DNA of 64,000 bases. Origin: Eledone cirrhosa. Its lineage: Eukaryota. Each line of letters opens with the position of its first letter. The stretch's first letter is position 1. Where the stretch lies: positions 249,674,001 through 249,738,000 of the forward strand of contig OZ024743.1 of the NCBI GenBank assembly GCA_964016885.1, given 5' to 3'. The position numbers and the translations under genes were made by a program. Positions 37,817 through 64,000 of this stretch are shown piece after piece. The notes beneath the pieces were generated by a model. That model made no database searches and had not been told where the DNA came from. It worked only from the letters and a program-made list of their open reading frames with translations.

Positions 37817-37871
<55 letters not shown>

Positions 37872-37923
37872 TAGTTTCATATATATATGTAGAAGTTATA
37901 TTTAATATATATATATATATATA

Positions 37924-38690: not shown

Positions 38691-38749
<59 letters not shown>

Positions 38750-38754
<5 letters not shown>

Positions 38755-39836
38755 CACACGCGAAGCGACCAAATTTAACCCAGCGACTACAACAGCAACA
38801 ACAACAACAACAACTGCCACCACCATCACTGACATCATCCACCACCACCATCACTATCACCAGCGATCAGTCTTAAGAAGAAAACAACAACTATAATAAT
38901 TGTTTCTATTTTTAGCACAAGACCAGCAATTATCCCAGTGCATTACTAGTACTTTATTTTATTGACCCCGTAAGGATGAAAGGCAAAGTTAACCTCGGCG
39001 GGATTTGAACTCAGAAAATAAAGTGAGGTAACTATTTGATGCGAAGCAGTGTCCGACGCTCTGCCGATTCTGCCAATCCAACAACAACTATAATAATAGT
39101 AATTATTCTGTTCTTGGCACGGGGCAGCGATTGTCCCAGCGCATTGCTGGTGCTTTGTTTTGGGCTTGGAGCATGGAGGGCTGTAGCTCTATGCTGTAAA
39201 ACAAACAATTATTATAATAATTGTTTCTACTTTTGGCACAAGGCCAGCAATTATCCCAGTGAATTACTGGTACTTTATTTTATCGACCCCGTAAGGATGA
39301 AAGGCAAAGTTAACCTTGGCGGGATTTGAACTCAGACGGCAAAAGGCCGTAGCTCTATGCTGCAATAATACTGAACAGTAACACTCGGCTTCAATTATAT
39401 GAGCTCCTTCTAAAGTCAACAGTTGACATGATCTTGTATCAGTAATGACGGTAATATATGTATGTGTGTGTGAGTGGCGTGTGTTGGTGTGTGAGTGTAT
39501 GTGCCGTACGTATGAGTGTCAAGTGATTATTATTTTTTTTTTTTTTCTTTTCGCGGGGAGATAGAAATAATCGAGCTAGATACCCGATCGCACAGTTAAA
39601 CCACTGGGAGTGAAGGACCCCTAGCCCTTGTCAGAGCATTTTTCTAGGAGAAGGCATCTAGGAAACTGGGTTAATTCCGACATAAAACCTGCGGCTCAGT
39701 AGTATACCGATGATGTTGATCTTTTCTTCTTTTCGGGTTATAGCTACTGTCGCTCAGAGAGTGGGATTGGCTCAGCGCACAGTCTTTCCTCACTTTAAAA
39801 ATATTCTTCACGCACAAGCATTGCACGATTGCATTA
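38750..39836. repeat. Duplicated composite block, copy 3 (more diverged)
   Basis: aaagtcaacagttgacat, tagaaataatcg...gatcgcacagttaaaccactggg and cattgcacgattgcatta occur in the same order as in 20020-21027. Confidence 0.8.
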
Positions 39837-40189
39837 ATTAATAACTATTAATAGTGTTATTGTTATTGTTATTATTGTTGTGACCATGCTGTAAAATGGA
39901 TGGGTAGAGAGGGCCCATGAGTCCAGTAAGACATCTCTCTAGTGCTGGTGGCACGAATAAAAGCACCCAGTCCATGCTGTAAAGTTGCACTGGTGTTAGG
40001 AAGGGCATCTAACCAGTGTATTAATGCCAAAACAATTATGAGCACAACAACAAATATATATCGCAATAACTGCATAAACAGCAATAGCACTAACCATGTT
40101 AGGGCTGTGCACATTAGTGGGGTGGCTGGTGCGGCCATGTGCGAGAACACCCTGACCGTCTTCAAGCAATCGCACTACAGGAAAAGGAA

Positions 40190-42842: not shown

Positions 42843-42934
42843 CCATCTCCACCACCTCTGACATTGGATTCTATTACAACTATGGAATTTACACCTGCAA
42901 TGCTGCGACATCACCTTAAAAATAAACGCAACGT

Positions 42935-43230
42935 GAACGGCAAAGCATAAATGAACTAAGGGAGAAATTAGGAATAAGAGGAATCAGATGTTGTTTACTC
43001 GAGAGAAGACTACGTTAGTATGGTCACATGATGCGCATGAAAGACGACAGCTGTATAAAAAAGTGCAAGACAATAAAAATAGATGGTAGCCACGGAGTAG
43101 GCAGACCCAGAAAAACCTGGGACGACTTGATAAATTCCGACCTCACACACTTACACCTCTCCAAGACAATGTCACTGGACCGAGATCTTTGGCGTTACAC
43201 AGTAATACAGAAGACCCGCCTTGCCTAAGT
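42935..43230 (+). mobile_element. 3' fragment of the same RTE-like family
   Basis: GHMMRMKDDSCIKKC...GRPRKTW. Confidence 0.7.
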
Positions 43231-43614
43231 ACAAAGCGAAACCTAGTCAGTAGGCACCTCTAACAAAAATACACCCCCGTCCCACCACCCCCACCCCATC
43301 CACACCACCCCTTTCGATGTAAAGTTATGTTGGTACCACATCCAGTCCGAAATAAATGAGGTCGTGTAGGTGTCACGAAAAAAAAAACACACAGTCCACG
43401 CTGTAATGTGGCCGTGTATGTAACACGGTAAAAACCTCCCAGTCCACACTGTAAACGTGGTTGGTGTTAGGAAGGGCATCCAGCCATAGAAAACCCGCCA
43501 GACAGTCCTATACGAGCAAGACAACCAATCTTGCCTCAAGTGGGAAAACTCCCGTCCAAACCCATGTAAGCGTGGAAGATGGACGTTAAACGATGATGAT
43601 GATGATGATGATGC

Positions 43615-45210
43615 AACCTTGCCTTCCTGGTCTTTATGGTGTTACATACCTGCTTCTCAAAGGTGGTCGGTACTTCCTTCTGTACCAGCTATCACGATTC
43701 TTCCAATTCTGTCTGAACAATTGTGCTACACCAGAACAGTGGACAACTGCCAGTGTCATTCCTCTGTTCAAAAAGGGTGACTGCACATCACCTGTCAACT
43801 ATCATTCAGTCAGTCTTACTAGCTGCATTGCCAAACTGATGGAATCCTGCGTCAGAGAAACACTTTGAAACTTCTGGAACTCTCACAGTCTTATCCGGCC
43901 CTCGCAATCTGGATTTATCCCTAACTCCAGCTGCTGTGATCAAGTTATCGAGTTTCTTGAAGACATCACCCAGATCACTGATGGCAGCTCATGGGTAGAT
44001 GTGGTTTACCTTGACTCTGCTAAAACTTTCAATTCTGTGCCACACAAAAGACTTATGGCAAAACTCTCTGCAAAAGGTGTGAAGGATGATCTTTTTAACT
44101 GGTTGAAGTCCTTCATTCTCAGTTGAAGAGAGGTAATCAAGGACAGCATTCCTCACCATATCAGATGTCATCTGGTGTACCACAGGGATCTGTTCTTAGC
44201 CCCCTTTTGTTTGTGGCATATATTAATGACAGAGATGCCAACTTAAAGAATGTCACAGTACTGAAATATGCAGATGACATCAAGCTATACCTTGAGATAA
44301 AAAGGACAGATCCTAAACACTATAGATCTTTCCTGCAATCAGACCTGGACACAATGCAACAATAGATCATGGACTGGCAACCGAAGGTGTTACAAGTGTA
44401 CCACCATGCATTTTGGGAGTAAAAACCCAGTGTCCATAAACTCCCTCCACAACACTAATATCAAGAAGTCTTCTTATGAAAGTGACCTGGGCATTACTGA
44501 CAGCAGCGATTTGCGTTAGAGGAAGCACATCTCTAAAATTGTCGAGAAGGCCGAGGGTGTCTTAGCACCTCTGTCAGCCACTCTCCAGCTATCTATTTAA
44601 AGCTGTATATAGCTATGGTGTGGCCACACTTAGAATTTGCATCACCAGTCTGGAACCCCTATCTTGCTCAGAGCATTGACCGCCTGGAAACAGTTCAGGG
44701 ACGTGCAACCAAGCGAATACCCTCCATCAGGCATCTACCATACTCTGAACGCCTTGCTTCCCTGGGCATAGATACATTGAAGCTCTGACGCCTGGCAACT
44801 GACTTGGTAAACACCCACAAAATTATTAACCATCTTGTCAACAACAACCCTGAGTACTTTTTTGATTTCCATGTGTCTAACACACGTGGGCATGCCTACA
44901 AAGTCAGAAAACAGCACAGCTCCCATGACTTTCAGAAACATTTTTTCACGCTCAGAGTTGCTGAAGCATGGAACAAACTACCTGCATCAGTTGTTAGCTG
45001 TCGAGACACTGCATCCTTTAAAATCTCCATGCTTCCTGAGATTCGCCAACTCTACACCTAATATTCCCTTTCATACACACGCACACATGTATATCATAAC
45101 TCATACACTATTTACTTCCCTGACATTTGTACATTATTCTATGTACTATACATGCACCTTTGATGAGTTGTAGTGCACCTGAGCACTGTACACAATAATT
45201 TCATTATCAT
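43615..45210 (+). mobile_element. CR1-type LINE 3' part (RT, degraded)
   Basis: VIPLFKKGD, NYxxVSLTS, SGVPQGSVLSPLLF, KYADDIKL, TRGHAYK, WNKLP; 3' end cacctgagcactgtacacaataatttcatt. Confidence 0.88.
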
Positions 45211-45976
45211 AGGGAGGAGAGGTTCTCAATCATTTGAAAAAAAATACTAAAATAAAGAAGCCAATCTTGAGATTGGATCTAGGAAACAGTGTTTCCTTTG
45301 GTTTTTTCCATTACCGATAATATCTGCTGGTTGTAACTCCTGGCAGAAAGCAGCGGGATTTGAACTCAGAACATACAAAGCCAGATCAGACACAGCAAAA
45401 TATCTTGTCACACTATTTAACAATTTCAGCAATCCACTGCCTCTGGACTGGAACTTTATTTATCATCTCTGAAATAATGAAAGTTAAATTTGACCTCAGC
45501 AGGATTTGAACTCTTAATGCTTAGAGCCAGATCAGACACTACAAAGTATTCCCTCTGACTTTTTAATAATTCCACCAATCTACCATCCCTGGAATGGTAT
45601 TTTATATATCTACCCTAGAAGGATGAAATGCAATGTTGACCTTGATGAGATTTGAACTTTCACTCCACCAATTTAATGTGTCAACAAATAAATATGTTAG
45701 CCCTGTTCATGCAAAACTGGATGAAACTGTCCTTGTCTATTTTAAGGTGTTTTTATTTATGTAAACTCCTTCCATCGTAATTTAATGTAAGAACATTTGT
45801 TAAGTTACATTCCAAACATCATTTCACTAATGATGATAAAGTAAGTTACGTTTTTAGTAATAATACTTTGTTTGTAATGGTAGCAAGAGAGGTTCACAAC
45901 GGTACAATTGATAAAGATAGCAATTCGATGTTGGACTGATATGTTGGTAGCGATTACTACTTCAGGAAAACAGAGA

Positions 45977-46511
45977 TGTAATAATGATGTTCATATTCCA
46001 TGGTAGTGGAAAAGATCAGAAGGCGTAGTTAAACATAATAAAGATTTATTTTTGCTTAACATGGACGCATGTACAAAGGGTGTGAAGTGGTACAGATATT
46101 TTGTGTAATAAGGCTGACATGTAATGGCAAATCTCTTAAATCAAGTACTTTGTAACCAAGTTGTGGGTTACGGTAAATCTCCTAAAAGCCATATAATGAA
46201 ACTACTCTCATTGTTAGAGAGCAAAGTCATAGGAGTAGGGAAGCCATTATGAGCTGCTAGTCGATGACTCCAAAACGCAACTGGTGGGTAGTTTTGAAAG
46301 ATGGTGCATCGATCAGTAAAGCCATTTGTAAGGTGCTGGTGTTGACGAAATGCAAAGTGCAACTGCTGGCTAGAACTGAAAAAAGGCACGAAGCAACTGC
46401 TGGGCGGAAGGCGTCTTTTGTATTCATATGCCACCAACCCTAAGGGCTGGCAAGTGTTAAAGCACAACCAAATTACTCTGCAGCGATAAAATAGGGCCAT
46501 TGCTTGCTACA
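45977..46511 (-). mobile_element. Possible solo LTR
   Basis: TGTA...TACA termini and an AATAAA near the 3' end on the minus strand. No target-site duplication seen. Confidence 0.25.
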
Positions 46512-46632
46512 CATTTATAAAACCCTCTAAACTCTTGACTATTTTCAAAATTTTTCTATAATTATATGCAGTGCTTTTCATTAGAAATATGGTAGCAAAA
46601 GGGTTTTAAATATTTGTTCTGTTTTTCTCCAG

Positions 46633-46736
46633 TTTGATTTGGTTTGTGGAAGAGAATGGATGAAAAACGTTGCTGTGTCAATTCAATTTACAGGAACTCT
46701 TTTCGGAAATTTGGTATTTGGTGTATTTTCAGACAA
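46633..46736 (+). CDS. SLC22 exon (FDLVC...FGVFSDK), 104 nt
   Basis: tttttctccag| and AA|gtaagt. Continues SIVSE|FDLVC, the SLC22 signature; 104 nt is the typical size of this SLC22 exon. Confidence 0.93.
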
Positions 46737-47785
46737 GTAAGTATGAAATGTTGAGCTTCAATAAGAATGGGACTTAAAATACATATTTTGACAAGCTGAT
46801 AACATTGGCAAAACACCTAAATAAGCTGTCACCATTCATAATGATTATTAGATTAACTCTATTCACAGTCCTTAATTTGGTGGATATTTAGTGTTTATTA
46901 CACAAATAATACATAAAAAAACATTTAATTTCTAATATGTATTTGTAATAATAACAGTAACAACAACAAGAAATGTTTTAAAGCTATTTTCTGTGCTAAA
47001 GCAGGGATTAAACATGCAGGACCAGTGACAGATTTCCCATTTTGCCCTATAATCTAAATACCCTCTGATGATGGTGATGGGTGATGATGATATATATATA
47101 TTGTATAAATAGAGTACATATTGTGTGTATATATAAGGAGCAAGTACTATATATATATAAGGCGATGACACATGACCGTGACCTCTGGCGTCATGCAGTA
47201 ATACAGAGTACCCGACCTCCCATGGGTACAAGCCGAAAGCTGAAGCATATAGACAATATGCCCCCACACCCTCTCACTGCAAAGTGGTCATGGAGGTGCC
47301 ACGGCAAAAAAGCACCCAGCCCACACTGTAAAGTGGACGTGTAGGCGCCACGAAAAAAGCACCCAGCACTCATTGTAAATGAGGTTGGTGTTAGGAAGGG
47401 CATCCAGCTGTAGAAATCAAGCCAAAATCAGTTCCTGTATGAGCAAGGCATGGTCAGCCGATCAGACACTGCCCACAACAAGACAACCCGTCTAATCCAT
47501 ACTAGCAACGGACGTAAAATGGTGATGATGATGAGTGGTAAAAAACAGGCGGTTATATCTGAAGTTCGTCGAGAACTCAGTCCAAAGGACAAATTCAGTA
47601 TAGAGTTAGGTCCACAACAAATATATATATATAATGTATGTATATCTACACATAATCAGAGTATGAAAAGTGACTGATGTCTTTAAGAAGTAGAAAAATA
47701 AGTGAAAATAAGACATTTTATTCCCAAAAGATTGAATCAATTATTTGACTATTAAACGACTATATCCTTTTTAACTTTTTTCCAG

Positions 47786-47940
47786 ATTTGGACGCTTTAA
47801 AGCGTTTTGCATTGGAGAAGCATTGTACCTATGTTGCGGTATTTTGAAAATCTTTTCACCAATTTATAATGTCTTCATCACCTTCTACTTCTTTGAAGGT
47901 TTTGGATATGGTGGCATCTATATCACCCTATACACCCTCT
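47786..47940 (+). CDS. SLC22 exon (KFGRFKAF...YITLYTL), 155 nt
   Basis: ttttttccag| and T|gtaagt. Completes MFS motif A (SDKFGR). Phases 2 to 1 are consistent with the neighbouring exons. Confidence 0.9.
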
Positions 47941-48599
47941 GTAAGTCTTTGGAAAATTCCTCATATTGCTGTGTGGTTCAAGATTTTGTTTCATAGCCAT
48001 GTGGTTCTGGGTTCAGTCTTCTACTATAGTTTCATGATGAACAATGAGTGTGACTGATATTTAATAGATGGAAACTACAGTAGTGTGTATGTGTATATAT
48101 ATATATATATATGTGTATATATATATCATCATCATTATCATCACTGTTTAACGTGCATTTTTCATGCTAGCATGGGTTAGATGGGTTGTTGCCCCACTTT
48201 GAGGCGAGTTGGGTTAGGTGACCATGTTTTGCTCACACAGAACCATTTCTGGCTTGATTTCTATGGCTGAATGCCCTTCCTAACGCCAATCATATTTACA
48301 GTGTGTGCTGGGAGCTTTTTGTTGACTGCTACATGACCACTTTACAGTCTGGGCTAGGTGCTTTTTATCGTGACACCTACACGACCACTTTACAGTGTGG
48401 GCTGGGTAGTTTTGACGTGACAACTTCATGACCACTTTATAATGTGGGCTGGGTGCTTTTTGCTGTGTTGCCATCACAACCACTTTACAGTGTGGGCTGG
48501 AGGCTTCACTAGATGTATGCCATAGCCTATTCTCATGAGAGATCTATGGGAGGGTGGTGGTGGTGCATACTATATATATGTATGCTTCAGCTTCAGCTT

Positions 48600-49910
48600 G
48601 TGTCCATGGGAAGACAGGTCTTCTGTATTACTGCATAATGCCAATGATCCCTGTCCTGTGTCATCATCTTTGAGAGGTGCAATTGGGCAAGATTAGCTTT
48701 TATCACCTAAATCCAAGTCTTCCTGGGTCTCCCCACTTCAAGGCTTCCATAGACTTTGAGCACTCTGCGCCTTTTTATACAGCTGTCATCCTTCATACGC
48801 ATTGCATGTCCATACCAACGTAACCTCCTATCCTGCACACTGCATCTGATTCCTCTTATGTCTAGTTTATCTCTCAGTTCATTTATACTTTGCCATTCAT
48901 GTAAATTACAATTACAGATCCAACTGAGCATGCAAGCTTCATTTCTTTCTAATGTACACAAGTCTTCTGCACACAGTGCCCAGGTATCACTACCATGCAA
49001 CATTGCTGTTTGTATGCATGCATCATACAGTCTGCCTTTCATTTTGAGGGAAAACCCTTTTGTAGCTAGCACTGGTAGTAGTTCTCTGAACTTCTTATAT
49101 ACCATTCTCACTCAAGCTACTATACATTCAGAACACCCACCTCCGCTGCTAATTTGATCATCCAGGTAGCAGAAGCTGTCTACTGCATCTACCAAACCAT
49201 CCCAGAATTTGATAGCGCTTGTTTCCTGTGGTCGTTTGCGGTTTACTGCCCTGGTGCAGCAGCTACATGTAAAACTTACATTTTTTGCTAAACTTCCTGA
49301 GATCCCACATCTCTTGTATACCTCTAGTTTGCATTTGGGACAGAGGATGGAATTTCTACCTACACCTTTCCTACACACTGAGCAAGGCCATTTCCCCAAG
49401 AGGATCAGGGTTCTGTTTTCTCTTCTACTTACTAGGACCTTAGTCTTTGTCAGGTTGACTTTAAGACCCCTTTGCTTCTAGGCTCTGCTTCCATGTTTAG
49501 AATTTCTTCTATAGTTCCACCATAGACCCCGCTGTGAGTGTAAGTTCATCTGTGTACAGGAGTTTCCATGGGTAGCCAGTCTTAAACTTCTCTGTTATAG
49601 CCTATAGTATGATGATAAACAGGGGAAGGCTAAGAACAGAGATACCAACCTGCACACTAAAATTCCTTGCTACAGTCATTATTAATCCTAATTTGGCTGA
49701 CAGCTCCCCTGTACATGGTTTGTACAGCCTTCACAAGCCACTAACCTACTCCTAGTTATCAAAGATTCCACCAAATTATGGCTCAGGACCCTCTGTCAAA
49801 AGATTTCTCCAGATCAACAAATGTCAGGTAGAGTGGCTTACTTTTAGCTAGGTACTTTTCCTGCAGCTGCTTCACAAGGAAGAGAGCATCAGTGGTGCTT
49901 TTGCCATTTT
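48600..49910 (-). mobile_element. RTE/RTEX-like LINE fragment (PHD-insert family)
   Basis: GKWPCSVCRKGVGRNSILC, KKFRELLP, RLRWYGH, GRPRKTW. Confidence 0.82.
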
Positions 49911-51064
49911 ACATCTGTTAAATGAATTGTTGCACTCTAAGGCTAGAGAAATCGACCACCATGTCTTGCTCATACATTCCATTCTGGCATGGTTCGGTTT
50001 CTATTGCTGGGTCTCCTTCCTAATGCCAACCACTTCATGGCATGCATCAGGTTTGTTTTCTTGTGATACCATCACTACCACCTGACAGGGTGAGCTGTGT
50101 GCATTTTTCATGGCACTAGCATTATCACTTTACAGTGTGAGCTAGGTGCATTTTATCATGGTACTAGCACTACCACTTTACAGTGGGTTTGATACATTTT
50201 ATTATGGCACCAGTACTTCCAACTTCCAGTGTGGGCTGAGAGCTAAGTGCATTTTATTGTGGTACCATTACTACCACATTCCAGCACTAGCATGCTTGCA
50301 TCCCTGGTTGAGTTGAGAGGACAGTGATCAGGAATGGTGGTGGAGGGGGAGGGGGGTGCAGTCTGTTACTAGAGGAAGGGGTGGGGTGGCCTTAGGATAA
50401 GTTGGTGACGTCTGGTAGCACTGCGTGTGTGTTGTGGGGTGAGCATGGCTTTCCATTCTGGCATGGTTGGGCAAGAAGAAAGAGAATTCTGGGATAAATT
50501 TGGCAGTGCAGGCTGTGGAGGAGAAGGGTTAAGGGTGAGTAAGTGTTGGGGTGTAGGATGGTCTTTGTGAGAGGGAGAGAAAGAGTGAGTAAGCAAAGTC
50601 TGGCAGTACAGTGAGAGTGCATCTGCCTTTGGGTAGGAGTCAGAGATGTGAAGAGGGAGAGTCTAGGTGGATGGGGTAATGACTGTGATGGGAGAGATGA
50701 AGTATGCTAGAGGAGAAGACTAGATGATGGAAATAACTAGTGAGGGGGTGGTGGGAGATGAAAGGGGCAGCATAAGTGTTGTTATATAATTTTGCCTTTC
50801 CTATATACATATCGCAGGCAGCCTTTCAACCATTTGAGGTTGATAAAAAAAATACCAGTCTAGTACTGGGATTGATTCTTCCTCTATATCTCGTTCACAC
50901 TTCCTCTCTATCACTCTCTATCATTCTCTGGAAGAAATCTGCTGGATTCATTCCTGGAGAAGAGATGGGCTCTACTTGGCATAAAAAATGCCCTAGAAAT
51001 ATTGTATGTCAATATGCCACCCCAATGACTCAATCAGGAGTTACAGGACTATATACATATATAT

Positions 51065-51718
51065 AATAATAATGAAATTATTGTGTACAGTGCTCAGATG
51101 CACTACAACTCATCAAAGGTGCATGTATAGTACATAGAATAATGTAAAAATGTCAGGGAAGTGAATAGTGTATGAGTCATGATATACATGTGTGCGTGTG
51201 TATGGAGGGGGAATATTAGGTGTAGTGTTGGCGAATCTCAGGAAGCATGGGGGTTTTAAAGGAATCAGTGTCACGACAGCTAACAACTGATGCAGGGAGT
51301 TTGTTCCATGCTTCAGCAACTCTGAGCGTGAAAAAATGTTTCCGAAAGTTCTGGGAGCTGTGCTATTTTCTGACTTCGTGGGCATGCCCACATGTGTTAG
51401 ACACATGGAAATCAAAAAAGTACTCAGGGTTGTTGTTGGCAAGATGGTTAATAATTTTGTGGGTGTTTACCAAGCCAGTTGCCAGGCGTCGGAGCTTCAA
51501 TGTATCCATGCCCAGGGAAGCAAGGCGTTCAGAGTATGGTAGATGCCTGATGGAGGGTATTCGCTTGGTTGCACATCTCTGAACAGTTTCAGGTGGAGAA
51601 TGTTCTGAGCAAGATAGGGGTTCCAAACTGGTGATGCAAATTCTAAGTGTGGCCGCACCATAGCCATGTACAGCTTTAAATAGATAGCTGGAGAGCGGCT
51701 GACAAAGGTCTTGCTGAG
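51065..51718 (-). mobile_element. CR1-type 3' fragment, inverted relative to 44570-45210
   Basis: Reverse complement of the 3' part of the 43615-45210 element. Confidence 0.88.
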
Positions 51719-51796
51719 TGATATATATATATATTTATTCTTTATTATGACTAAGTAATGAATCTTTTTACTTTGGAGTTTCACCTGTGTACTCAC

Positions 51797-51851
51797 AGTC
51801 TTGCCTGATGATTCTGTGAGTACACAGATGAAACTCCAAAGTAATAAGACT
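51797..51851 (+). ncRNA. Type I hammerhead ribozyme candidate (PLE-derived fold-back remnant 51729-51880)
   Basis: agtcttgc CTGATGA t tctgtg-agta-cacaga t GAA act-ccaa-agt A | ataagact: all three stems and a GUA triplet are present. Confidence 0.7.
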
Positions 51852-53041
51852 CACCTCTTAGCCATAATAAAGTATATTTTAACTTTGCTTTGGTATAAGT
51901 ACTCATTCTTACGCCCATCAGTATCACATGAATGCATATATATGTGTGTGTGTGTACGTGTGTGTGTGTGTGTGTGTATGTGTGTGTATATGTCCCTGCC
52001 TATGTTTATATTGCGTTTGTGTCTGTATATATATATCCCGTAACTTAGTTGTTCCACAAAGAAGAGGTCAGTAAAATAAGTACCAGATTTGAGAAAAATA
52101 AGTACTGGGGTCAATATGATCAACTAAATCAAGACAGTGCTCCAGAATGGCCAGATATTAATGATTGAAGCCAGTAAAAGAAAAAGAGTTAATGAATATA
52201 GAAATTTATATATATTCTTATATTCTTTTAAAGGTTCTACTGGTTTCAGTCATTAGATTGTGGCCATGTTGGAGCACCACCTTAAAGATATTTATTCAAT
52301 CATATCATCCATAATACTTATTTCTTCAAGTCTAGTACCTACTTCATAAAGTAGCAAAGTGGCAAAGTTGTTAGAATGTCAGATGGAGTTCAATTCTCTT
52401 TGAGATCGACTTTTCCTTTCATTCTTTCAAGGTTGGTAAATAAAATACCTGTTCAGTAATAGAGCTGATTTTACTTCCATACTGTTTTCTCCTCACCCCC
52501 GCCCTCTCTCTCTCTCTCCTTCTCTGGGGGAAATTAGCTATTTTCAGACATAGAGAAAGAATAGGCCCTGCAGGCTTTAAAGAACCCGTACAACTCCACC
52601 AGGAGTTACAAGTCCAGACATACACACACACATCCATCCATATATATACATATATCCATCCATCCATGCACACATTTTTTAAAATCCCATAATTCCTTTT
52701 GGGGGTCATAGATGCAGTGTCATGTGGTGTGTCTAAGGCACTTTTAAAGCCTGGTGGAGCCCAACCCTGTGCATGTTTGAACACAGGTGATTTTTTCTAT
52801 AGAGGAAGAATTGACCTCATTACTGGACTAGTACTATTTTTATTGACCTCAAAAGGATGAAAGGCAAAGTTGGCCATGGCGGGATTTGAACTCAGAGCGT
52901 GCAGTGAGGTGGGACGAATACTGTAAAGCATTCTATCCAATGTCTTAATGAATCTGCCAATTTGCTGCCTTACATACATACCTATTTCATATAAGATATT
53001 AACAAAAAGTAAAGGAATGGAAGATTTTTTTTCTATTACAG

Positions 53042-53213
53042 TGCTAGAGTGTGTTACACAAGATTCCAAAATGACCCTGAATTTTGCTATGAATGGAATA
53101 TTTGCAATTGGTGAAATAATTTTGGCTGGTGTGGCATATCTACTTTGGGATTGGAAACATCTAATCATTGCTGCATATATGCCACATGCTCTACTGCTTA
53201 TTGTAGGATTGAA
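53042..53213 (+). CDS. SLC22 exon (LLECV...AYLLWDWKHL...GLK), 172 nt
   Basis: ctattacag| and AA|gtaggt. AYxxxDW(R/K)xL motif of SLC22 TM5-6. Confidence 0.9.
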
Positions 53214-53519
53214 GTAGGTATATTTTGTTATATGTAACATATAATATATACAGTATATCTTTTGAATAACACACACACACACACATATATATGTGTGTGT
53301 GTGTCTGTCTCTGTATGTGTCTGTGTAATCAGCTTCCTATGACATCACTACCTCAATGATATATGATAGAGCAATGTTGGGGGATGCTCTCTTGTGTGTA
53401 GAACCCCAGATGCAAGTTGCCCCATGGTCCCACCAGATAGAAAAAAGAAATCTATATAATGGAGGATAGTGAAGGAGTCCTATTGAAATAGCCATTCAAA
53501 TTCACAGGGACAACTTGTG

Positions 53520-53850
53520 AGTGGTTAACTCCACCTCAGTAGCAGTTAGTAGGGAGGTAGTATGACGATACAGAACATCAGAAGTCTCTACTGCTACAGG
53601 TTTAACAAGAAACAAGTTCTTTTCATGGGGCTCACTCTTGCGGGTGGCCAACTCGCCCCAATAACAGTGAGTAGGGTGGTAGTCCAGGGACCCAGGACAC
53701 CTAAAGTCATCACTGCTACAGGTTCAAAAAGAAACCAGTCTATTTCATGGGGCTCACTCATGCAAGTGGCCAACTCTGCCTTAATAACAGTAAGTGGGGA
53801 GGTGGTATGAGGACTCACAACATCAGAAGTCCCCCACCACTATAAGTTTA
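53520..53850. repeat. Diverged tandem repeat, ~120-bp unit x2.5
   Basis: actgctacaggtt...tttcatggggctcactc...gtggccaactc...aataacagt recurs. Confidence 0.7.
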
Positions 53851-54125
53851 ATGTTAAATCTATCAAAAAGCGGTTGATATTTAAACAGTTTGCGATCTTC
53901 AGCTTCTCGTGTAATAAAACTTGGGTGTGTCACAGAATATACCTGGTTACTGCTGGAAAAAGAGTTGTTACATGTGTCCTAGATTACCTGGCTGGAGAAA
54001 ATGTGGGAGCTTGAAGGAGAACACTATATATGAAGAGTGTGTAGTTTGTAGCAAAAACTCAGCTATATATAATATATATATTATATCTGTTTTTAGATTA
54101 TGTTACTGTCTTCAAATAACACATC

Positions 54126-54190
<65 letters not shown>

Positions 54191-54249
54191 ATGTGTATGC
54201 GTGTTAATATGTATGTATGTATGTGTGCTATCTCTTTCTCTTAATTTTG

Positions 54250-57200
54250 AGTATATTTTTGACTGGCCACCTTCCTGGTGGCAAGGTTGTAAAAGAAAAG
54301 AAATTGTCATCCCTTGAATCACAAGTATGTTTTACAAATTTTGAAGGTGTCAGCTATCGCAACCATTTGTAGACTATGAATTAGGGAGCTGCGCTCTTTG
54401 TCTGCAAATCCATGTTCAGTTATACATTGGTCCAAGCAGGTTGGTATATAACCCGTAGCTCCAATAATGATGGGTATGAAGCTAAAGGTGTATCTTGGAT
54501 ACTGGATTTGTAAATTCCTCATCAATGGTCCGTAGATGTCCTCCTTCTCCTGTATTTTTCTGACAACGTTTACATCAAGTGGGCTGCTGATCTCCACAAC
54601 AGAACACGTTTTTAATCTGTGGTCCCAAACAACAATATCAGGCCGATTGTGCTTTAATTTGGTGGCAGTTTTTATTTTCAGGTTCCACCAGTATTCCTTA
54701 GTGCCATCTGTCTCAATATATTCTTCCTCGTTTATTGTTAATTTTGTTTTCCGAAGTGCGTTCCAGATGGTTCTAGCTGTCCCATCGTGTCTCATGGGGG
54801 GGTAGTAGTGAGATGACATTCTTTCGCAGCTGGCAACAATGTGGCTTACATCCTCAATCTTTGTTTTACATAGCCTACATTTATTGTCAGCTGATGGCCC
54901 TCCCCTTTTGTGCAGCAGATGTTTGGTAGGGAGTTCTTGTTCCTGTATTGCATAGAGATATCCCTCAAGGTGTGATGTCATAAACTTGTCGGAACTCCAT
55001 GCCAGGCTTTTTGAGTTATTTATCCCCTCTATGGACTGTATCTTACATCTCAAGTATCCATGCACAACTTTTTCTGTAAATTGGTCAATTTTTTCATCTT
55101 GTTTGAACATTGAATAGGATCTTCCGATTTCTCTGGGTGAGAGATTTATATCAGGCTTTATTCCATATCTCTCCTCCAGATCAGTGGCTATTCTAATGAT
55201 ATTTTTTTTTTCATGCTCATAAACCTGGGCAAGATGGTTGCCAACCTTTTTCCTCTGTTGAAGATGTTGCTTCAGTGTTACTATCCGGGTCTCATATGAT
55301 GTTAATATGGATTTTAGACCCCGGCCACCTTCCTTGCATGAGAAGTATAGCCTATCCACATCACCATTGATGTTAAAGTTCCCAGTAACACTGAGAAGTT
55401 TGCGAGTTCTAACATCCATCTCACTTAGTTCTTGCAATGACCAGTTCAGCAGGCCAAATGTTGGCATTAGAATTGGCACAGCATAAGTATTGTGGGCAAT
55501 GTATTTGTTGCACGCTGACAGTTCTGATGACCATATTTTCTTTACTCTTCTGAGGTATTCAGTTCTGGTTCTCTCCTTATTTATGGGTCCATCATATCTG
55601 ACATTCTCATCCTGTCCAAGATATCTGTAGTTGTCACCTGACTGTAGAGGTTGTATTGTCAGGCCGTTCATCTCTAGATTTCTAGAGGAGGGCACAGTTC
55701 TTCCACGTTTTACTGCCAAATATGCACACTTGGACTCACCAAATTTTATTTTGATGTCTGTTGAAAATTGTGTAATGAGGTCCAATTGTTTCTTGATGTC
55801 ATTGATATTTGGCCCATACAACTTCAAGTCATCAACAAAGAAAAGATGGGAGATACTTCTGGACCCACTTCTTTGTCCACCTTGTTTCCTGAGTAGGTAA
55901 GATAGTGGATTTAGTGAGAGAACGAAGAGTAGCACTGACAAGCTATCACCCTGAAAGATGCCCTTCTGGTAATGTATCTTATCAGTCTTAACTTGCTCCT
56001 TCTCACCTCTAAGGATCAAATTGGTGTACCAGTTCTTGGTCAGACGTTCAACAGCAACTACCAGTGGTTGTGGGACTTTGGCTAACTGTAAAGCCTTAAC
56101 AATCCACCCATGAGGTACACTATCAAATGCTTTTTGATAGTCCAGCCACACCACAGTCATATTTCTGTGATTCTTTGTTGTTTTTTCTTGAATCATTTTA
56201 TTAGTTAGTAGGTGATCTATACAACCCACACCTCCCTCTTTCCACCAGCTTTCTCAGGTGTTATGATGTTGTTGGTAGCACAGTGATCCTGTAAGAACAG
56301 GTTAAGGCACCCAGTATATAATTTATACATGATGTTTTGGCAGGCTATTGGGCGGTAATTTTTAGCAAGGGTGGTTTGGCTATTTTGGGGAATGAGGAGA
56401 GTAGTGGCAGTTGATAACCATCTGGGCAGTTCTTGTGTGCCTTTAAGGGTTTCTGTAAACCAGAATGTGATCTTGCCGATAGAAAGTGAAATTCTTCAAC
56501 CAGTATCCTGTAATGAGGTCTGGGCCTGGTGATTTCCTATTCAACATTTTCTGTAGAGCTGTTTCCAGTATTGACCCATCTATGTCATATTGTTTTGTCT
56601 GGACATGTTGGCAGTAGTCCTGTTCCAGTTCTTTTAGCCAATTAGTTTGTCTGTTGAATCCATCATCTGTTTCCCATACAGATCTCCAGTAGCTCTCAAC
56701 CTGTTCTTTTGAAAGGGTGTCATTTACAGAGATTGAGCTTTTGCCACCGAAGCTGCGATAAACTGATTTAGGATCTCTGGCAAACAATCTATTTAGCACT
56801 TGTCGTTTATGTGCTGTTGACTTATATTTTAGTCTTTCTGTTGTAGCTGTGAGTTGTTGTTTCAACTGGTGTAATTTGGAGTTTAAAGTTTTAAATTTTG
56901 TATCTCCAAATCATCTCTCTAACTTTTTTTTTAGGTCTTCCTGGTGTCATGTGAAGTTGCTCTCTATGTTGCATTTCATAACGACTGCGATGTGTGAGAT
57001 ACTTTGTCTCAGGGACAAAATTTTGCTTTTTAAATTTCGCATCCATGCTGGTTCAGGCTTTTTGTTTGTATCTTGATTGCGTGGTTTTAGATGTTTGTTA
57101 TATGATAGCAATATGACAGCTGAAACATATAACAAAATGTTAAGCGTTTCAAATGTCGTTTCTACACCTTTAGATCGTATAGCCTTCAGATAATTGTCAG

Positions 57201-57698
57201 CTATTTCGTTCACCGCTTCCAATTCCAATTTAGTGGGTTCTTTACTGATTCTGGTGTTGTATGGTCTGTCACTCTGATTAAGGCTGTGTATCTATTGAAA
57301 CATTTCGTCCCATATCACTTGTAAGGTGTCCACAAGTTTTTGGTGTTCTGTTTGTACAGTAGAGTCATGAATTTCAGCCTCGTTGTTAATGTGACAATTA
57401 CTACTAGAGTTAGCTGACCTTTCTCGCTGTTCTTCAGTGGAAGTGGGATGGATTTCAGCAAAATTGTTGGTGAGCTGTTCACTGTTAGATTTAGCTGGCC
57501 ATTCTCTTTGTCTGTTAGTGGAGGTGGGGTGGTTGTCTACAAGGGCTGTATTTGTAGTATCACTCAATTCCGTTAGATGTATCAATTTACATCTAATGAT
57601 ACGTTTTGCCTGTTAATTTAAATGCTTTGGAGAAAAGTCTAATTCTGGGTGTTTGGAGTTCCATAAAGTTTTTAGCCTTTGCATAAAACCGAACTTTT
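54250..57698 (-). mobile_element. R4/Dong-like RLE LINE, third family, degraded, 5' end interrupted by an RTE-derived element
   Basis: KSPGPD, WLDYQKAFDSV, GIFQGDSLS, FFVDDLKL, CRLCKTKIEDVSHIVASC, RHD, NRPDIVV...VEISSP. Confidence 0.88.
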
Positions 57699-57753
57699 GT
57701 ATGTATGTATGTATGTATGTATGTATGTATGTATGTATGTATGTATGTATATA

Positions 57754-58363
57754 TGTCAGGTCACCAGTTGGTGCTACTGGTAACATGTATCCCAGTACAA
57801 CCTGTCCCATGGTCGGGTCGTTGGCGACTAAACTGGCAACCCTACCAAGGTTTCTTGGTGAGGAGGGTGACTTTGGACATCCTGCAAGACTAAAAACAAA
57901 ACCTGTCAAAGGGCAAAGGAGCTCTTAAGAGTCAATGGCCATCCAAAATCACCGGGAGAGATGACCCCTTAGCCTTTGTCAAGGCAGAATTCTAGGAGAA
58001 GGAAAACTCTGATATAACACCTGCAACCCTGATTGTATCCAATGATGTTGACTTGTTCTTCTTTTTGGTAAATATCATCTTGGTTAAGAGAGTGGGACTG
58101 GCTTTGTGCAGTGCCTTTGCTCACTATAAAAGCTTCACGGCTCAGGCATTGCTTTATATCTGGAGATCTCTCTGCACTTGTCGTCACATGGTACCATGGG
58201 CCCAGCACTATGTGTCAATAATTGTCGCAAGTGTAGTGTTTGTACCAGAGTTTTCAAGTCGCTGGCTGGACTAAAAAGTCACACTCATTCAGCGCATCAG
58301 TAGGAGTTCTTCTACATGGATATAAAGTAGTGGCCGTACTCGAAAACGAGTTGGCAGCCACCA
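57754..58363 (+). mobile_element. Non-autonomous bipartite RTE-derived element, complete copy in (GTAT)n
   Basis: Near-identical to 18796-19402. Confidence 0.8.
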
Positions 58364-58599
58364 TGTATGTATGTATGTTTGTATGTATGTGTGCATGTAT
58401 GTATGTACATATGTATATATACAACACACACACACACATATATATATATATAGAGAGAGAGAACATTGAAGTAGGTATATCTTATATAATATACGAGTTA
58501 ATATATAATATATCATACAATATACAATATATATTTTGATATAATAATATATGATATATTAATTAACTGACCATCCTTAAATGTTAATTTACTTGGCAG

Positions 58600-58854
58600 G
58601 TACCTTCCTGAATCTCCCAGATGGCTTCTTAATCAGAAGAAATTTGAAGAAGTTGCAAAGTTATTTAACAAAATAGCATCAACAAATGGTATTGAGGATG
58701 ACAATATGGTGGAAAATCTTATTCAGAAAATTCAAAGAGAAGCTGAAAATAAATCAAAGTTGGATGTCGAAGTTGATGACAAGACATACACAACACTTGA
58801 TTTATTGAAAAAACCTCGGAGAGCTATGATTTCTTTAAACCTTTGGTTTAGCTG
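58600..58854 (+). CDS. SLC22 exon (YLPESPRWLL...TTLDLLKKP...LWFSW)
   Basis: ttggcag| and TG|gtaaat. PESPRWL motif and DL(F/L) motif of the large cytoplasmic loop. Confidence 0.93.
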
Positions 58855-60199
58855 GTAAATATTTTATGATGTTACTAGAAATGGTAAACATCTATGACAA
58901 TATTCTATAGCAATATGTATGATGTACTTTGATATGTAATATCTATACCAATATCTAAATGGAAAGGAACCTATTCATTGTATACTAGCAGAAATACTGC
59001 CTAGGGATCAGTAATTTCAGCTAGTATATATGTTACTAGCAAAGTGGAACACTAGGTATAGTATTACTATGCATTTTACACAGAATGTCTAAAACTTCAA
59101 GGCAAGGTATTAATAACATATTTGATCCTGCGGTTTGGCAGTATCGGTAGAGTGTCAGACACCATGCTTTGCAGCATAGTTATGGCCCTTTGCATTCTGA
59201 GTTCAAATCTGCCGAGGTTAACTTTGCCTTTTATCCTTGCGAGGTCGATAAAATAAAGTACCAGTGATGCACTGGGGTAATCGCTGGCCTTGTGCCAAAA
59301 GTAGAAACTCTATATACAGTCAACAGGGTCTACTGGTCAAGACCCTGCCAACAGCATATAATGTGACATGACTTATTCCCGTGGCCACTCAGCCTTTCCA
59401 CTAACAATTTCTAACTGTTATCCCCACAATCACTACACACTCCCACTCCAGCCATGTCACTTCCAATATCACTCCTTAGCTGCTACCCCCTCTAAAGCCC
59501 TTAGATGCCTTCACTATTGCAGCCTAATAGATACCCTCTTCATTCCAACGCACCCCACCTATGACTCCCTTCACCATTACTCCTTAGCTATTCTCTCCAC
59601 CACTACACTTCTCCTTCCTGACACTGGTGAGTGCCTTCCCCCTTGTGCTATTGACCAAACTATCCATGCCCTCCATCATCATCTCCCCTTTGGTGTTCTC
59701 ACCACTGCTTCCTCTTCCCACTATGCCATCAAAAACCAGCCCCTCCCCTTCCATACTCATAACCCTGTCAACTCATACGATACTTGCCACAACTTCATAC
59801 TTATCTCCCTTGTATTACCCCCTCCTCTACAGAGCAGAGAAGGCTTTTCTATTAGACAAGGACCAAAGACTTGTAAAGTGGTTGGTGACAGGAAGGGCAT
59901 GCTGCCATAGAAAATATGCCTTAAAAAGGGTTGAGAGAATCCTTCAGTTGTGACATGGTGTGACAACTTTTCTAGTGTTGGTAAAGTTGTTGGTGATAAG
60001 AAGGGCATCCTAGAATGCTTGCCACACAAAGGGTTGGGAGGACACTTCAGTTGTATCAAAACATGACTCTGTAGAATGTGTGACCATATGTAAGCAAAAT
60101 GCAGAACCTCTGGCCTATCTGGGAGGTTAGTAAACCCGATTCACTACAGACTTGGTCTACCTATCCAACCCTTGCTAGCAGGGAAAACGGATGTTAAAT

Positions 60200-61570
60200 G
60201 ATGCTTTTCCATGCTTGCATAGGCTGGATGGTCTTTCTCAGCACAGCATCTCTCCCCAAGTTGCGATCCTTTGTCATCAACTCTGTGAGTCTCAGTGATT
60301 TGAGGTCAGCTCTGACAACCTCTGACAATCTTGGTCTGCCTCTACTGCAGCTTCCTTCCACTGGCATTTCCTGGCACTTCAACCAACTATCATTGTCCAT
60401 GTGCATCACATGTCCAAACTAATGCAGTCTTCTCTCCTGCACACCATCTTGGATTCTTCTTAAACCCAGCTTCCTCCTCAACTCATCCAAGTTCTGTCTT
60501 TCTCTCACACTTACATTGACATCCAATGGAGCATGGTTGCTTCAATTCTCTCCAGTCAATGCATATCCTATGCAGTCACTGCCCATGCTTCACTACCATG
60601 CAGCATCGTATTTTGCACACAGGCACCATACAGCTGTCCTTTTGAATGTAAGGAAAGGCCTTTCTTGGTCAACAGTGGGAGTAGCTCTTTGAACTTTTTC
60701 CATCCTATCCTTATTCTAGCTATTATGCTCTCAGAGCACCCTCCTCCATTACTAATTACATTGCTTAGATAGAAGAAGCTATCAACCACTTCTATGGGTC
60801 CTTTCTGTGACTTTTTACATTGTGTACATCTTATAGAGTTTATGCCTACTCCTTTTCTACATACTGAGCAGGGCCACTGCCCTGAAGGAATCGGGGGTCC
60901 TGTCTTCTCTCCTACTCACAAGCACTTTAGTTTTGGCTAAGTTTACTCTCAGGCATTTAAATTCTAAATTCTGTTTCCATAGTCAGAACTTATTTTCTAG
61001 ATCTTTAATGGATTTGGCTATGATAACCAGATCATCTGCATAGAGAAGTTCCCATAGACAGCCGGTCATAAACTCCCCTGTTATAGCCTGGAGAACTATA
61101 ATGAATAGTAGTGGGCTAACAACCTGACCTCGATGAATTCTTACCTGTACCTTGAATTCCTCACTAAACTCATTTCCTACTCTCACTTTGCTGACATCTC
61201 CTGGTGAGAGCAGTGCAAGCCATGTACAGCATGGCTTGCACTGCTCTCACCAACTATTCTTCTATGCCTAATTTCCTTAAGGACCACCAGATAATAGATT
61301 GGGGGTACTCTGTAAATGTCTTCCTAAGTCAATGAAAGCTAGGTATAGTGGCTTATATTTTGCTAAGAACTTCTCTTGTAGTTGCTTCACTAAAAAGAAG
61401 GAATCTGTAATACTTTTCCCAGACATGAAAACAAACTGCATCTTGTCTAATTTGACTCTTTCTCTAATTAATTGGGCTATAAATTTCTACCACTTTCAAA
61501 TCTTGGTCCATATGTTTTATTCCTCTATAGTTGCTCCTTTCTAGGGCATCATCTTTACCCTTATAGCAAT
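60200..61570 (-). mobile_element. RTE/RTEX-like LINE fragment, degraded
   Basis: SPLLFIIVLQAIT, LLYADDLV, GWKKFKELLP, SRGRPR. Confidence 0.8.
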
Positions 61571-61857
61571 TTACGTTTGTACTGCTGCACCAGCCATTGG
61601 GTATGGCTCCATCCTGTGTTACCTGGCTGACTATGCAGGTTACTAGTTTGACTCTTACTTCTCCCAGAGAGAGAGAGAGGGGGGGGGGGATAGACAGGCA
61701 TACATGAATTGACAGATGGACAAACAGACAGATAGATAGCTAGATAGATAGATGAATGGATGGATAAGTATTCTGGATATATATTAAATGATTTAACTTT
61801 CAAATAAGGTTTGTTAATCAACAGTAATATTTTTCAATACTACCATTTATATTAAAT

Positions 61858-62241
61858 GTTTGTCAACATTATTTTGTACAACATTACAGGTGTGTCAACA
61901 ATATATTCTACTATATTACAGGTGTGTCAACAATATATTCTACTATATTACAGGTGTGTCAACAATATATTCTACTATATTACAGGTGTGTCAACAATAT
62001 ATTCTACTATATTACAGGTGTGTCAACAATATATTCTACTATATTACAGGTGTGTCAACAATATATTCTACTATATTACAGGTGTGTCAACAATATATTC
62101 TACTATATTACAGGTGTGTCAACAATATATTCTACTATATTACAGGTGTGTCAACAATATATTCTACTATATTACAGGTGTGTCAACAATGTATTCTACT
62201 ATATTACAAGTTTGTCAACAATATATTCTACTATATTACAG
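61858..62241 (+). repeat. Minisatellite, 32-bp unit (gtgtgtcaacaatatattctactatattacag) x ~12, ending at the SLC22 acceptor
   Basis: cag|g junctions at 61887, 61919, 61951 ... 62175, (caag 62207), 62239, all spaced 32 bp. Confidence 0.97.
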
Positions 62242-62456
62242 GTGCATCACCAGTATGTTGTACTATGGAGTGACACTAAATTCTGTTGATATGTCAGGCA
62301 ATCAATATATAAACTTCCTGTTGATGTCAGTTGTAGAAATTCCAGCCAATATTCTTGGATGCATATTATTCTATTGGTTTGGTCATCGTAAACCATTGTG
62401 TGCCCTCATGATATTTGCAGGAATCAACTGCATAGTCTCAAATTTTGTGACAAAAG
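62242..62456 (+). CDS. SLC22 exon (CITSMLYYGVTLN...VEIPA...FGHRKP...FVTK), 215 nt
   Basis: attacag| and G|gtaaaa. YYG, GNxY.NF and VEIPA motifs. The acceptor is the last unit of a 32-bp tandem array. Confidence 0.9.
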
Positions 62457-63265
62457 GTAAAAAATGTATGATTCTTAGTACTATTAGACTTTCATTTTTA
62501 AGTATTATCATCATCCTCTTCATCATCATCATTTTATGCCTGTTTTTCGTGCTGGCATAGGTTAAACAGGGGGTCATGGTCTGAGACAAGACAGCTTGGA
62601 GACCCACATCTTGTTTATATGTTCCCTATTTTGCTATGGTTTCTACGGTTGGATGCTCTTCAGAACATCAACTACTTTACAGATTGTACAGGGTACATTT
62701 TATCATGGCTCCAACACTACAATCAAATTTTCACAAATCAATGTTTGTCTTTCATTTAATTGTTTCATGAAATTTAAATCTAAAATTAAAGCAACTCTCT
62801 TAGAGCAGATCCTGAAAGAGTCTCAATGTCGATAATGGATTGAAATCAATACTGTGGGCAGGGGATCACTTGTTGGAAGTATAGGGGTCAGTGGTATCAT
62901 GTAGGCGGAAGAACAACCGACATGGTCACGCTCTTCTCTTTTGGACCATGGCATCAAACAGACATGATTGCTGTGTAAGCTTGAGTATATGTTGATAGGT
63001 TCTGGCCACAGATTAGGTGGGTATATTTCCCGTCTGGACAAGATCAACAATAGGAGAGGATCCACAAGGATGGTGAGCTATCCATTTTCTCTTACAACAA
63101 ATACATTGAGGAATTATGTTCAGGATAATTTGAACTCTACTGTAAGCAGAAATAACAGTAAAAAAAACAAGCATTTAGAATGATTTGGTCTTATCCTAGT
63201 GTTAGTGTTTGATAGATGGACAAAAAATGGTGTATAATCATTATAATATACAATTTTTTCTTCAG

Positions 63266-63374
63266 ACAATATTTGGATTCCTCTGATATTGGTTGTTTTG
63301 GGAAAACTGGGTGCCACAGCATCATTTAATGGTCTTTTCTTGACATCAGCAGAACTATTCCCTACAGTAGTACG
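63266..63374 (+). CDS. SLC22 exon (DNIWIPL...LGKLG...SAELFPTVVR), 109 nt; the gene continues beyond the window
   Basis: ttcttcag| and CG|gtaggt. GK and AELFPTVVR signature motifs. Confidence 0.93.
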
Positions 63375-63575
63375 GTAGGTGTTGCTTTTTACTATTTTAC
63401 ATACACACACACACACACACATATATATATATCAAATTAAAAAGTGGAGTTAAAGATCCACAATCATCTCCCATAATTTGTAGTTAATATGTTCCTCACA
63501 CTGATGGTTCCAAATGCCATATGACTGAACACATATCTCTGTATACTTCTCTCTATATGCTGATTTATATATATT

Positions 63576-64000
63576 CGAGGTGTGTCAGAAAAGTTCCAGG
63601 ACTGATGTCACAAAAGATTTATTTCAAACCCAAACTTCACACAAGAGTTTTCTCCTTCAAAGTAATACCCTTGGAGTCTAATGCACTTTTCCATCCTTTT
63701 CTGCCATGCACTCCTGGAAGGATTCTTCCGGGATTCTCTGCAGTTCCGTCGTCACAGCCTTTTTGATGTCGTCCACGTCTTCAAAATAGGCCCCCTCCGG
63801 GTCGTACTCGAAGATCCATGACTCATCTCCGGTGATGACTATCCCTAGCAAGTCTGGTTCGATTTCAAGACCCTTCTGGTCATCGTTCAGCAGTTTTGGC
63901 ACCATCTTCGCGCAGACTTTCCGCATGTCCAAATCTTCAGTGAGAATCTTCCAGACGCTGTCCCGATTCATGCCCAGCTCATTTGCCATCAGTCGAACAG
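63576..64000 (-). mobile_element. Mariner (Tc1/mariner) transposon, internally deleted, running off the window
   Basis: TIR-like cgaggtgtgtcagaaaagttcc after a TA run. Peptide LTEDLDMRKVCAKMVPKLL...TGDESWIFEYDPE fused to the C-terminal FEDVDDIK. Confidence 0.88.

What the first reader, a model, noticed from the sequence alone, without database searches (positions are those of the whole stretch)
61858..62241. A ladder of ~12 tandem splice acceptors, each also a donor (AG|GT), in front of an SLC22 exon
Seen: the 32-nt unit gtgtgtcaacaatatattctactatattacag starts with GT and ends with CAG. It contains a branch-like tgtcAac ~23 nt upstream of the AG, and every junction reads CAG|GTGTGT, a good donor match. 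Only the last AG gives the conserved protein, and the penultimate junction is mutated (caagttt). The array has no stop codon in any + frame, so acceptors 3, 6 or 9 units upstream would insert 32, 64 or 96 hydrophobic Tyr-rich residues into TM7 in frame, while others frameshift. Established: AG|GT sites act as recursive-splicing ratchet points, and tandem duplication of AGGT is a proposed intron-gain route. Inference: a VNTR-tunable splicing rheostat or recursive-splice ladder, or intron birth in progress.
Basis: partly seen in the sequence, partly recalled or inferred. Interest (0 to 1): 0.75.

Follow-up and report, generated by a model that had tools for sequence, protein, structure and literature searches.

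The report
Splice-acceptor "mirage" repeat in octopus transporter
The border between an intron and an exon of a likely octopus transporter gene is repeated twelve times in a row, but the one spliced transcript seen uses only the last copy, so the spare splice signals are likely silent decoys of a repeat type already known from lancelets.

Summary
The array is real. It has 12 units of 32 nt (61858-62241); nine are identical and occur nowhere else in the assembly, and three DNA-like runs of one sample show 8-12x depth on it. The unit is a copy of the gene's own intron/exon border: 25 nt of exon start plus 7 nt of intron end. That accounts for the AG|GT junctions, the 'branch-like' word and the open frame, since a paralog without the repeat has the same AG|GT and a stop-free border. 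Paralogs give the history. The likely original acceptor lies dead at 61857. The sister gene keeps two older copies. The tenfold expansion is seen only in this gene. One spliced contig joins donor 58854 straight to 62242 with no repeat unit, and no alternative-junction contig shows in the depth, though depth is low (5.8). This is a 'mirage' minisatellite, as described in amphioxus, where splicing is unaffected. The scan has noted the same kind several times in this genome and in others. No intron is gained. A rheostat is unsupported. Re-splicing of mis-spliced RNA is not excluded but unlikely.

The parts
61858..62241 (+). Mirage minisatellite: 12 x 32 nt, each unit = 25 nt of exon start + 7 nt of intron end
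   Evidence: unit matches own exon start at 19 of 25 and paralog exon starts at 19-21 of 25
61832..61857 (+). Likely original intron end, acceptor dead (ends AAT instead of CAG)
   Evidence: 20 of 26 identical to the live acceptor of repeat-free paralog L023; best elsewhere in the intron 15 of 26 (0 of 2952 positions reach 20); sister L022 has the same dead site (24 of 26, ends TAT)
61858..61889 (+). Oldest, degenerate unit; likely the former exon start, now intronic; ends CAG
   Evidence: a degenerate counterpart ending GAG lies at the same place in L022
61890..62177 (+). Nine identical units (young expansion), each CAG-ended and followed by GTGTGT
   Evidence: 9 exact matches of a 30-nt piece of the unit in the whole assembly, all here
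62178..62209 (+). Penultimate unit; nearest decoy acceptor changed CAG to CAA (an AAG remains one base on)
   Evidence: the equivalent site in L022 is GAG
62210..62241 (+). Terminal unit carrying the acceptor in use
   Evidence: X4 contig enters the exon here
62242..62456 (+). SLC22/OCT-like coding exon (6th of 8 mapped; second half of hydrophobic segment 7 through segment 9)
58600..58854 (+). Upstream exon; phase-2 donor CTG|GTAAAT; intron 58855-62241 is 3387 nt
63266..63374 (+). Next exon, joined in the same contig
17291..64000 (+). Host gene: intact SLC22-family transporter; mapped exons 17291-17667, 46633-46736, 47786-47940, 53042-53213, 58600-58854, 62242-62456, 63266-63374; last exon about 1.2 kb past the window end
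   Evidence: 530 codons open to the final stop, 12 hydrophobic segments; homologues named organic cation transporters of Octopus, 61-81% on this exon; top homologue hits OCT1/2/3 structures

Best explanation
This is a tandem repeat copied from the gene's own intron/exon border (a 'mirage' minisatellite); the transcript seen is spliced at the last copy, and the ten upstream acceptors are likely silent, tolerated decoys. Shown: the unit is exon start plus intron end; the sister paralog has two older copies and the same dead upstream site; the next paralog has none; the spliced contig carries no unit. Inferred history: a 32-bp border duplication occurred in the ancestor of this gene and its sister. 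The original AG was lost, so the working 3' splice site slid downstream and is now mostly former exon sequence. Slippage or unequal crossing-over then multiplied one unit about tenfold in this gene only. Inferred mechanism: the acceptor is chosen from the exon side (exon definition with the donor at 62457), so the copy touching the full exon wins. The nearest decoy, the likeliest leak and a frameshifting one, has lost its CAG by different changes in the two paralogs.
For: Unit vs exon start: 19 of 25 (own) and 20-21 of 25 (L022). L023's live border is ATTACAG|GTTTGT, so AG|GT predates the repeat; 6 of 20 same-exon starts begin GT. Dead site at 61857: 20 of 26 to L023's acceptor, none as good in 2952 intron positions. 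Copies of the exon start lie upstream in 2 of 20 loci, this gene and L022. These two group together at 86/90 support in a tree without the first 25 nt. X4: a 1295-nt contig at depth 5.77 lies on 58600-58856 at record 319-575 and on 62241-62454 at 573-786, then on the next exon, so 58854 joins 62242 directly. Depth in the bins at the donor (3.49) and at the exon start (5.58) is fully accounted for by that contig. Amphioxus mirages have the same anatomy and do not disturb splicing (PMC3087553, PMC3902484). Human F7, LMNB2 and PDGF border minisatellites use only the authentic site (PMC1557585). The CBS 68-bp junction duplication favours the distal site (PMC2630376).
Against: The RNA evidence is one contig from one run whose kind is not on record, at low depth. 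Contigs drop rare forms, and the joint and loose-end tables were cut (21 and 294 rows hidden). X4 does hold repeat-unit sequence: bin depth 6.06 and 7.75, roughly 1x per copy against 5.77 for the spliced contig if it is one collapsed contig. Unspliced RNA can explain this, since an exact 212-nt intron contig at depth 2.6 is in the same run, but minor use of decoys could too. In IFI6 (6-16) and CBS intron 13, two pseudo-sites are used. Four derived changes cluster in the first 9 nt of this exon and are not explained by the passive model. Exon definition was not tested here.
Confidence: 0.8

Rival explanations
1. Self-erasing ladder. Decoy AGs are sometimes used, the join regenerates a donor, and re-splicing to 62241 gives the normal mRNA, so the array is tolerated because errors are repaired by recursive splicing.
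For: Any such two-step path yields exactly the contig seen, so cannot exclude it. The only disabled decoy is the one 32 nt upstream, which would be too close to re-splice (minimum intron size recalled, not tested). In situ each unit ends in CAG|GTGTGT, which pairs with U1 as well as or better than 13 of 16 real donors, so each unit could serve as a cryptic 32-nt exon. The true exon start lost the +5 G (GTTTGT to GTGCAT) among 4 clustered derived changes (P 0.0006 for the first 12 nt).
Against: The regenerated donor (exon end CTG followed by GTGTGT) scores -4.7 kcal/mol, weaker than 15 of 16 real donors, and 15 of 16 real donors have A at +3 (crude, small sample). The intron is 3.4 kb, while ratchet points lie mostly in long introns and are conserved (PMC8605326). 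The sister gene lacks the ladder. The EJC suppresses regenerated sites (PMC8184009 abstract). The cluster of changes is weak after scan correction (P 0.04-0.13). The AG|GT is inherited.
Confidence: 0.09
2. Copy-number-tuned alternative acceptors lower the output (frameshift, decay) or add 32-aa blocks inside transmembrane segment 7.
For: Nine decoys (61921-62177) carry the same last 29 nt as the real site, the array is unstructured (z +6.3), three are in frame, unit sequence is present in X4, and proximal pseudo-sites are used in two human donor-side cases.
Against: No X4 contig runs from the last unit into the exon, and none adds depth at the donor. None of the 14 homologues whose junction was printed has an insertion there (3 of 17 gave no match to my motif). 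A 32-aa insert would split a membrane segment. No sign of length variation was obtained.
Confidence: 0.08
3. Intron birth in progress by tandem duplication of AGGT.
For: The mechanism exists (PMC3443670), and mirages were proposed as a route to new introns (PMC3087553).
Against: That route needs an exonic AGGT; here the duplicated site is an existing acceptor. No new exon is in the contig, and the exon count equals that of the repeat-free paralog. The outcome is a longer intron with a shifted acceptor.
Confidence: 0.02
4. Assembly artefact.
For: Nine identical units; no laid contig spans the array.
Against: 8-12x depth on the units in 3 of 3 DNA-like runs; variant border units; older copies in a paralog.
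Confidence: 0.01

Closest known systems
Amphioxus 'mirage' minisatellites, above all globin BflGb6 (also Adh3, troponin C, PGBD5); PMC3087553 and PMC3902484, passages read
   Same: Tandem copies of the 3' end of an intron plus the 5' part of the next exon; AG/GT signals in many but not all units; homogeneous centre with diverged border units; normal mRNA.
   Different: A mollusc. The unit is mostly exon (25 of 32 nt) with only 7 nt of intron, so the working pyrimidine/branch region is former coding sequence and the original acceptor is dead. Length variation is not shown here.
Human F7 IVS7 37-bp VNTR, with LMNB2, PDGF, IFI6 (6-16) and CBS IVS13 (PMC1557585, abstract and Introduction read)
   Same: A minisatellite whose end unit spans an exon border, reiterating an identical splice site; the site touching the exon is the one used.
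   Different: Those reiterate donors and this one acceptors. Two of the human cases leak to nearby pseudo-sites; a leak is not seen here.
CBS 844ins68 (PMC2630376, one passage read)
   Same: Duplication of an intron/exon junction after which the distal site is used and the old exon start becomes intron.
   Different: A single polymorphic duplication, not a fixed old one with later expansion.
Drosophila ratchet points / recursive splicing (PMC8605326, passages read)
   Same: Juxtaposed acceptor and donor-like word.
   Different: Short intron, not conserved in the sister gene, weak regenerated donor, no intermediate seen.

Membership tests
Mirage minisatellite | Tandem repeat whose unit spans an intron/exon border of the host gene | tested here: met
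Mirage minisatellite | Many but not all units keep AG/GT signals | tested here: met
   10 of 11 upstream units end CAG
Mirage minisatellite | Homogenised centre, diverged border units | tested here: met
   nine identical central units; first and last two differ
Mirage minisatellite | mRNA spliced at the authentic site | tested here: met
   one contig, one run, depth 5.77; minor forms not excluded
Mirage minisatellite | Length instability between haplotypes or cells | not tested
Recursive-splicing ratchet point | Juxtaposed acceptor and donor | tested here: met
   CAG|GTGTGT x10, but inherited from the ancestral border
Recursive-splicing ratchet point | Long intron | tested here: not met
   3387 nt, with the sites in its last 352 nt
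Recursive-splicing ratchet point | Conserved site | tested here: not met
   sister paralog's upstream sites are GAG and TAT; orthologues in other species not available
Recursive-splicing ratchet point | Strong regenerated donor | tested here: not met
   weaker than 15 of 16 real donors by crude U1 duplex energy
Recursive-splicing ratchet point | Cryptic exon with its own downstream donor | tested here: inconclusive
   each unit could be a 32-nt exon ending in CAG|GTGTGT; no read shows it
Recursive-splicing ratchet point | Splicing intermediates or sawtooth in nascent RNA | not testable with these tools
   only contigs available for the spliced run
Intron gain by tandem genomic duplication | Duplicated segment is exonic with internal AGGT and a new intron results | tested here: not met
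   duplicated site is an existing acceptor; 8 exons here and 8 in the repeat-free paralog; contig has no new exon

The most novel reading that the evidence does not exclude
The array is a self-erasing decoy ladder. Splicing into any upstream CAG regenerates a donor that is re-spliced to the last AG. Selection removed the one rung too close to be rescued and stripped the donor word from the true exon start. That would make mirages a natural source of recursive splicing in short introns, with flux set by copy number.
Probability: 0.09. Interest if true: 0.6.

Novelty: new member of a known kind. Interest (0 to 1): 0.2.

Why it matters
As it stands, it matters little. It is one more mirage, in a genome where the scan has noted several larger ones. 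Its value is as a clean case history: three paralogs show the state before the duplication, after it and after the expansion, and show a 3' splice site sliding onto former coding sequence without changing the protein frame. It is also a ready-made minigene for asking how the spliceosome picks the last of ten acceptors with the same upstream sequence, which a simple first-AG scanning rule does not explain. If re-splicing were shown, it would link mirages to recursive splicing.

Tried and rejected
RNA structure hiding the decoys: rejected. The array folds worse than 100 of 100 shuffles, and decoy AGs are about as open as the real one. A dispersed repeat family as source of the unit: rejected. 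There are 9 exact matches, all here; other hits of the array are 65-71% AT-rich stretches. Array translation as a known domain: 0 Pfam families. No listed holder run is on record as RNA; I treat X4 as RNA only because its contig is spliced. Absence of X4 cover on most intron bins is not used as evidence. The whole array was never laid in one piece, so no table lists junctions into the central units. My first polarity count (5 of 10 changes in the first 12 nt, one outgroup) was too high; with five outgroups it is 4 of 9, with 3 ambiguous. One of the 16 donors (L036) may be mis-called. The tree used 14 of 20 loci, leaving out the 6 most distant. Paper searches with no or irrelevant hits: 0 papers; octopus + tandem repeat + splice acceptor + intron: 2 unrelated. 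This is not proof that no cephalopod case is in print. The original mirage paper on Adh3 was not seen, only cited. Supplements of PMC3087553 (unit alignments) were not opened.

Full report
Observation. The first unit is degenerate, nine are identical, the penultimate ends CAA and the last begins GTT. There are 11 CAG ends: ten decoys and the acceptor at 62241. All three + frames are open. Acceptors 3, 6 and 9 units upstream are in frame, and the rest run into early stops. An exact 30-nt piece of the unit occurs 9 times in the 3.0-Gb assembly, all here. Three DNA-like runs of one sample give 12.3, 8.2 and 12.4 times flank depth on the last units, against 8.75 copies per 31-mer in the assembly. 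The array is real, though these runs may be the assembled individual.

Host gene. The exon's 17 homologues are all named cation or organic cation transporters or SLC22 members of Octopus species, at 61-81% identity; the top one matches OCT1/2/3 structures. Eight exons map between 17291 and about 1.4 kb past the window end and give 530 open codons with 12 hydrophobic segments. The junction Trp is in the seventh. The gene looks intact. The organism is inferred to be an octopod from these hits.

What the unit is. Its first 25 nt match the exon's own first 25 nt at 19 positions and the sister paralog's at 20-21. Its last 7 nt, ATTACAG, are the intron end. The repeat-free paralog L023 has ATTACAG|GTTTGTCAAC as its live border. 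So the unit is a copy of the border. AG|GT is there because the split Trp codon is followed by a codon starting with T; 6 of 20 same-exon starts in this genome begin GT. The 'branch-like' word is the Val-Asn codons. The open frame looks unusual against shuffles (1.2%), but the ancestral border already gives a stop-free unit, as do 6 of 20 loci.

History (inferred from paralogs). The 26 nt just before the array match L023's live acceptor at 20 positions; nothing else in 2952 intron positions exceeds 15. That site ends AAT here and TAT in the sister L022, so it was probably lost once in their ancestor. L022 has two copies: a degenerate one ending GAG and a terminal one almost identical to ours. 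Of 20 loci, these two carry exon-start copies upstream (best match 19-20 of 25; others 11-16), and they group at 86/90 in a tree that leaves out the first 25 nt (14 of 20 loci). Thus: an old border duplication, loss of the first AG, a working splice site built largely from former exon, then a young tenfold expansion in this gene. The decoy nearest the exon is CAA here and GAG in L022, two different changes. This fits selection against the leakiest site, but L022's copy is degenerate throughout.

RNA. Run X4 (kind not on record) holds a 1295-nt contig at depth 5.77 with no differences. It lies on 58600-58856 at record 319-575, and on 62241-62454 at 573-786 and 63264-63374 at 787-897. I take these as one record from equal length, depth and continuous coordinates. 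Donor 58854 therefore joins 62242 with no unit between. Bin depths at the donor (3.49) and exon start (5.58) are what this contig alone gives, so no second contig leaves the donor or runs from the last unit into the exon. Limits: one run, low depth, contigs drop rare forms, tables were cut. X4 also holds unit sequence (bins 6.06 and 7.75). If this is one collapsed contig, it is about 1x per copy. An exact 212-nt intron contig at depth 2.6 (next-best genome match at most 83% over part) shows unspliced material of this intron in the run, which is enough to explain it, but minor decoy use is not excluded.

Mechanism. The decoys are not hidden by structure, and the nine central ones have the same last 29 nt as the real site, so the choice must come from downstream. 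Exon definition with the donor at 62457 is the likeliest cause (inferred, not tested). It mirrors F7, where the site touching the exon wins over identical pseudo-sites (PMC1557585, abstract and Introduction), and CBS 844ins68, where the distal site wins (PMC2630376, passage). Recursive rescue gives the same mRNA and stays open. For it: the only dead decoy is the one too close to re-splice, unit ends are fair donors in situ, and four derived changes in the exon's first 9 nt remove its +5 G (4 of 9 derived changes; P 0.0006 for that window, 0.04-0.13 scan-corrected). Against it: the regenerated donor is weaker than 15 of 16 real donors by a crude duplex energy; the intron is short and the ladder is not conserved, unlike ratchet points (PMC8605326, passages); and the EJC blocks regenerated sites (PMC8184009, abstract). 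Intron gain by tandem duplication needs an exonic AGGT (PMC3443670, passages) and is not what happened here.

Known kind. Earlier scan notes pointed to amphioxus 'mirages'. I read the passages: BflGb6 carries tandem copies of an intron 3' end plus exon 5' part, many with AG/GT, with homogenised centres, and splicing is unaffected (PMC3087553; PMC3902484). This locus meets four of five features; length variation was not tested. The scan lists at least six other such arrays in this genome (AI notes, not checked by me).

Verdict. It is a new member of a known kind, interest 0.2. The boldest reading left, a self-erasing ladder, gets probability 0.09.

Noticed in passing
window 62242-62250: Four derived substitutions in the first 9 nt of the exon (three residues changed, FVN to CIT). 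Two of them improve a small quasi-palindrome over the acceptor (-4.9 kcal/mol versus -0.5 in the unit and -0.1 in the sister gene); template switching or selection, unexplained.
   Followed up: partly
window 62146-62170 versus paralog exon starts: Against a Phe-Val-Asn-Ser exon start, the intronic copy differs mainly by loss of G, including an internal CAG 20 nt before the acceptor; may be adaptation to serving as the intron end (not tested statistically).
   Followed up: no
L022 = G000:C4 about 91.612 Mb: Sister SLC22 paralog with the two-copy ancestral state of the duplication; the 7 exons seen look open; its RNA was not examined.
   Followed up: partly
L021-L040: At least 20 SLC22-like copies of this exon in the genome, 14 on contig C4, including a near-identical group of 8.
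   Followed up: partly
window 9136-10416, 13234-14757, 22451-25880, 27706-31131, 32598-33824, 54319-56253: Retroelement ORFs: RVT_1, endonuclease and zf-RVT domains (LINE-like); the one at 9136 pairs RVT_1 with GIY-YIG (Penelope-like, label recalled).
   Followed up: partly
window 6871-7921 and 10109-11162: 1057-nt inverted repeat at 97% identity, with the RVT/GIY-YIG ORF between and overlapping the arms.
   Followed up: no
window 184-2169 and 18432-20739; also 57708-58372: Dispersed 94-96% identical copies of 0.6-0.9-kb blocks, likely a young mobile element.
   Followed up: no
window 59130-59357: Very highly represented short element in the spliced run X4 (summed depth above 600,000), likely an abundant transcribed SINE.
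   Followed up: no
window 20894-22306 +: 470-codon stop-to-stop frame with no Pfam match, directly before an endonuclease ORF; may be a LINE ORF1.
   Followed up: no
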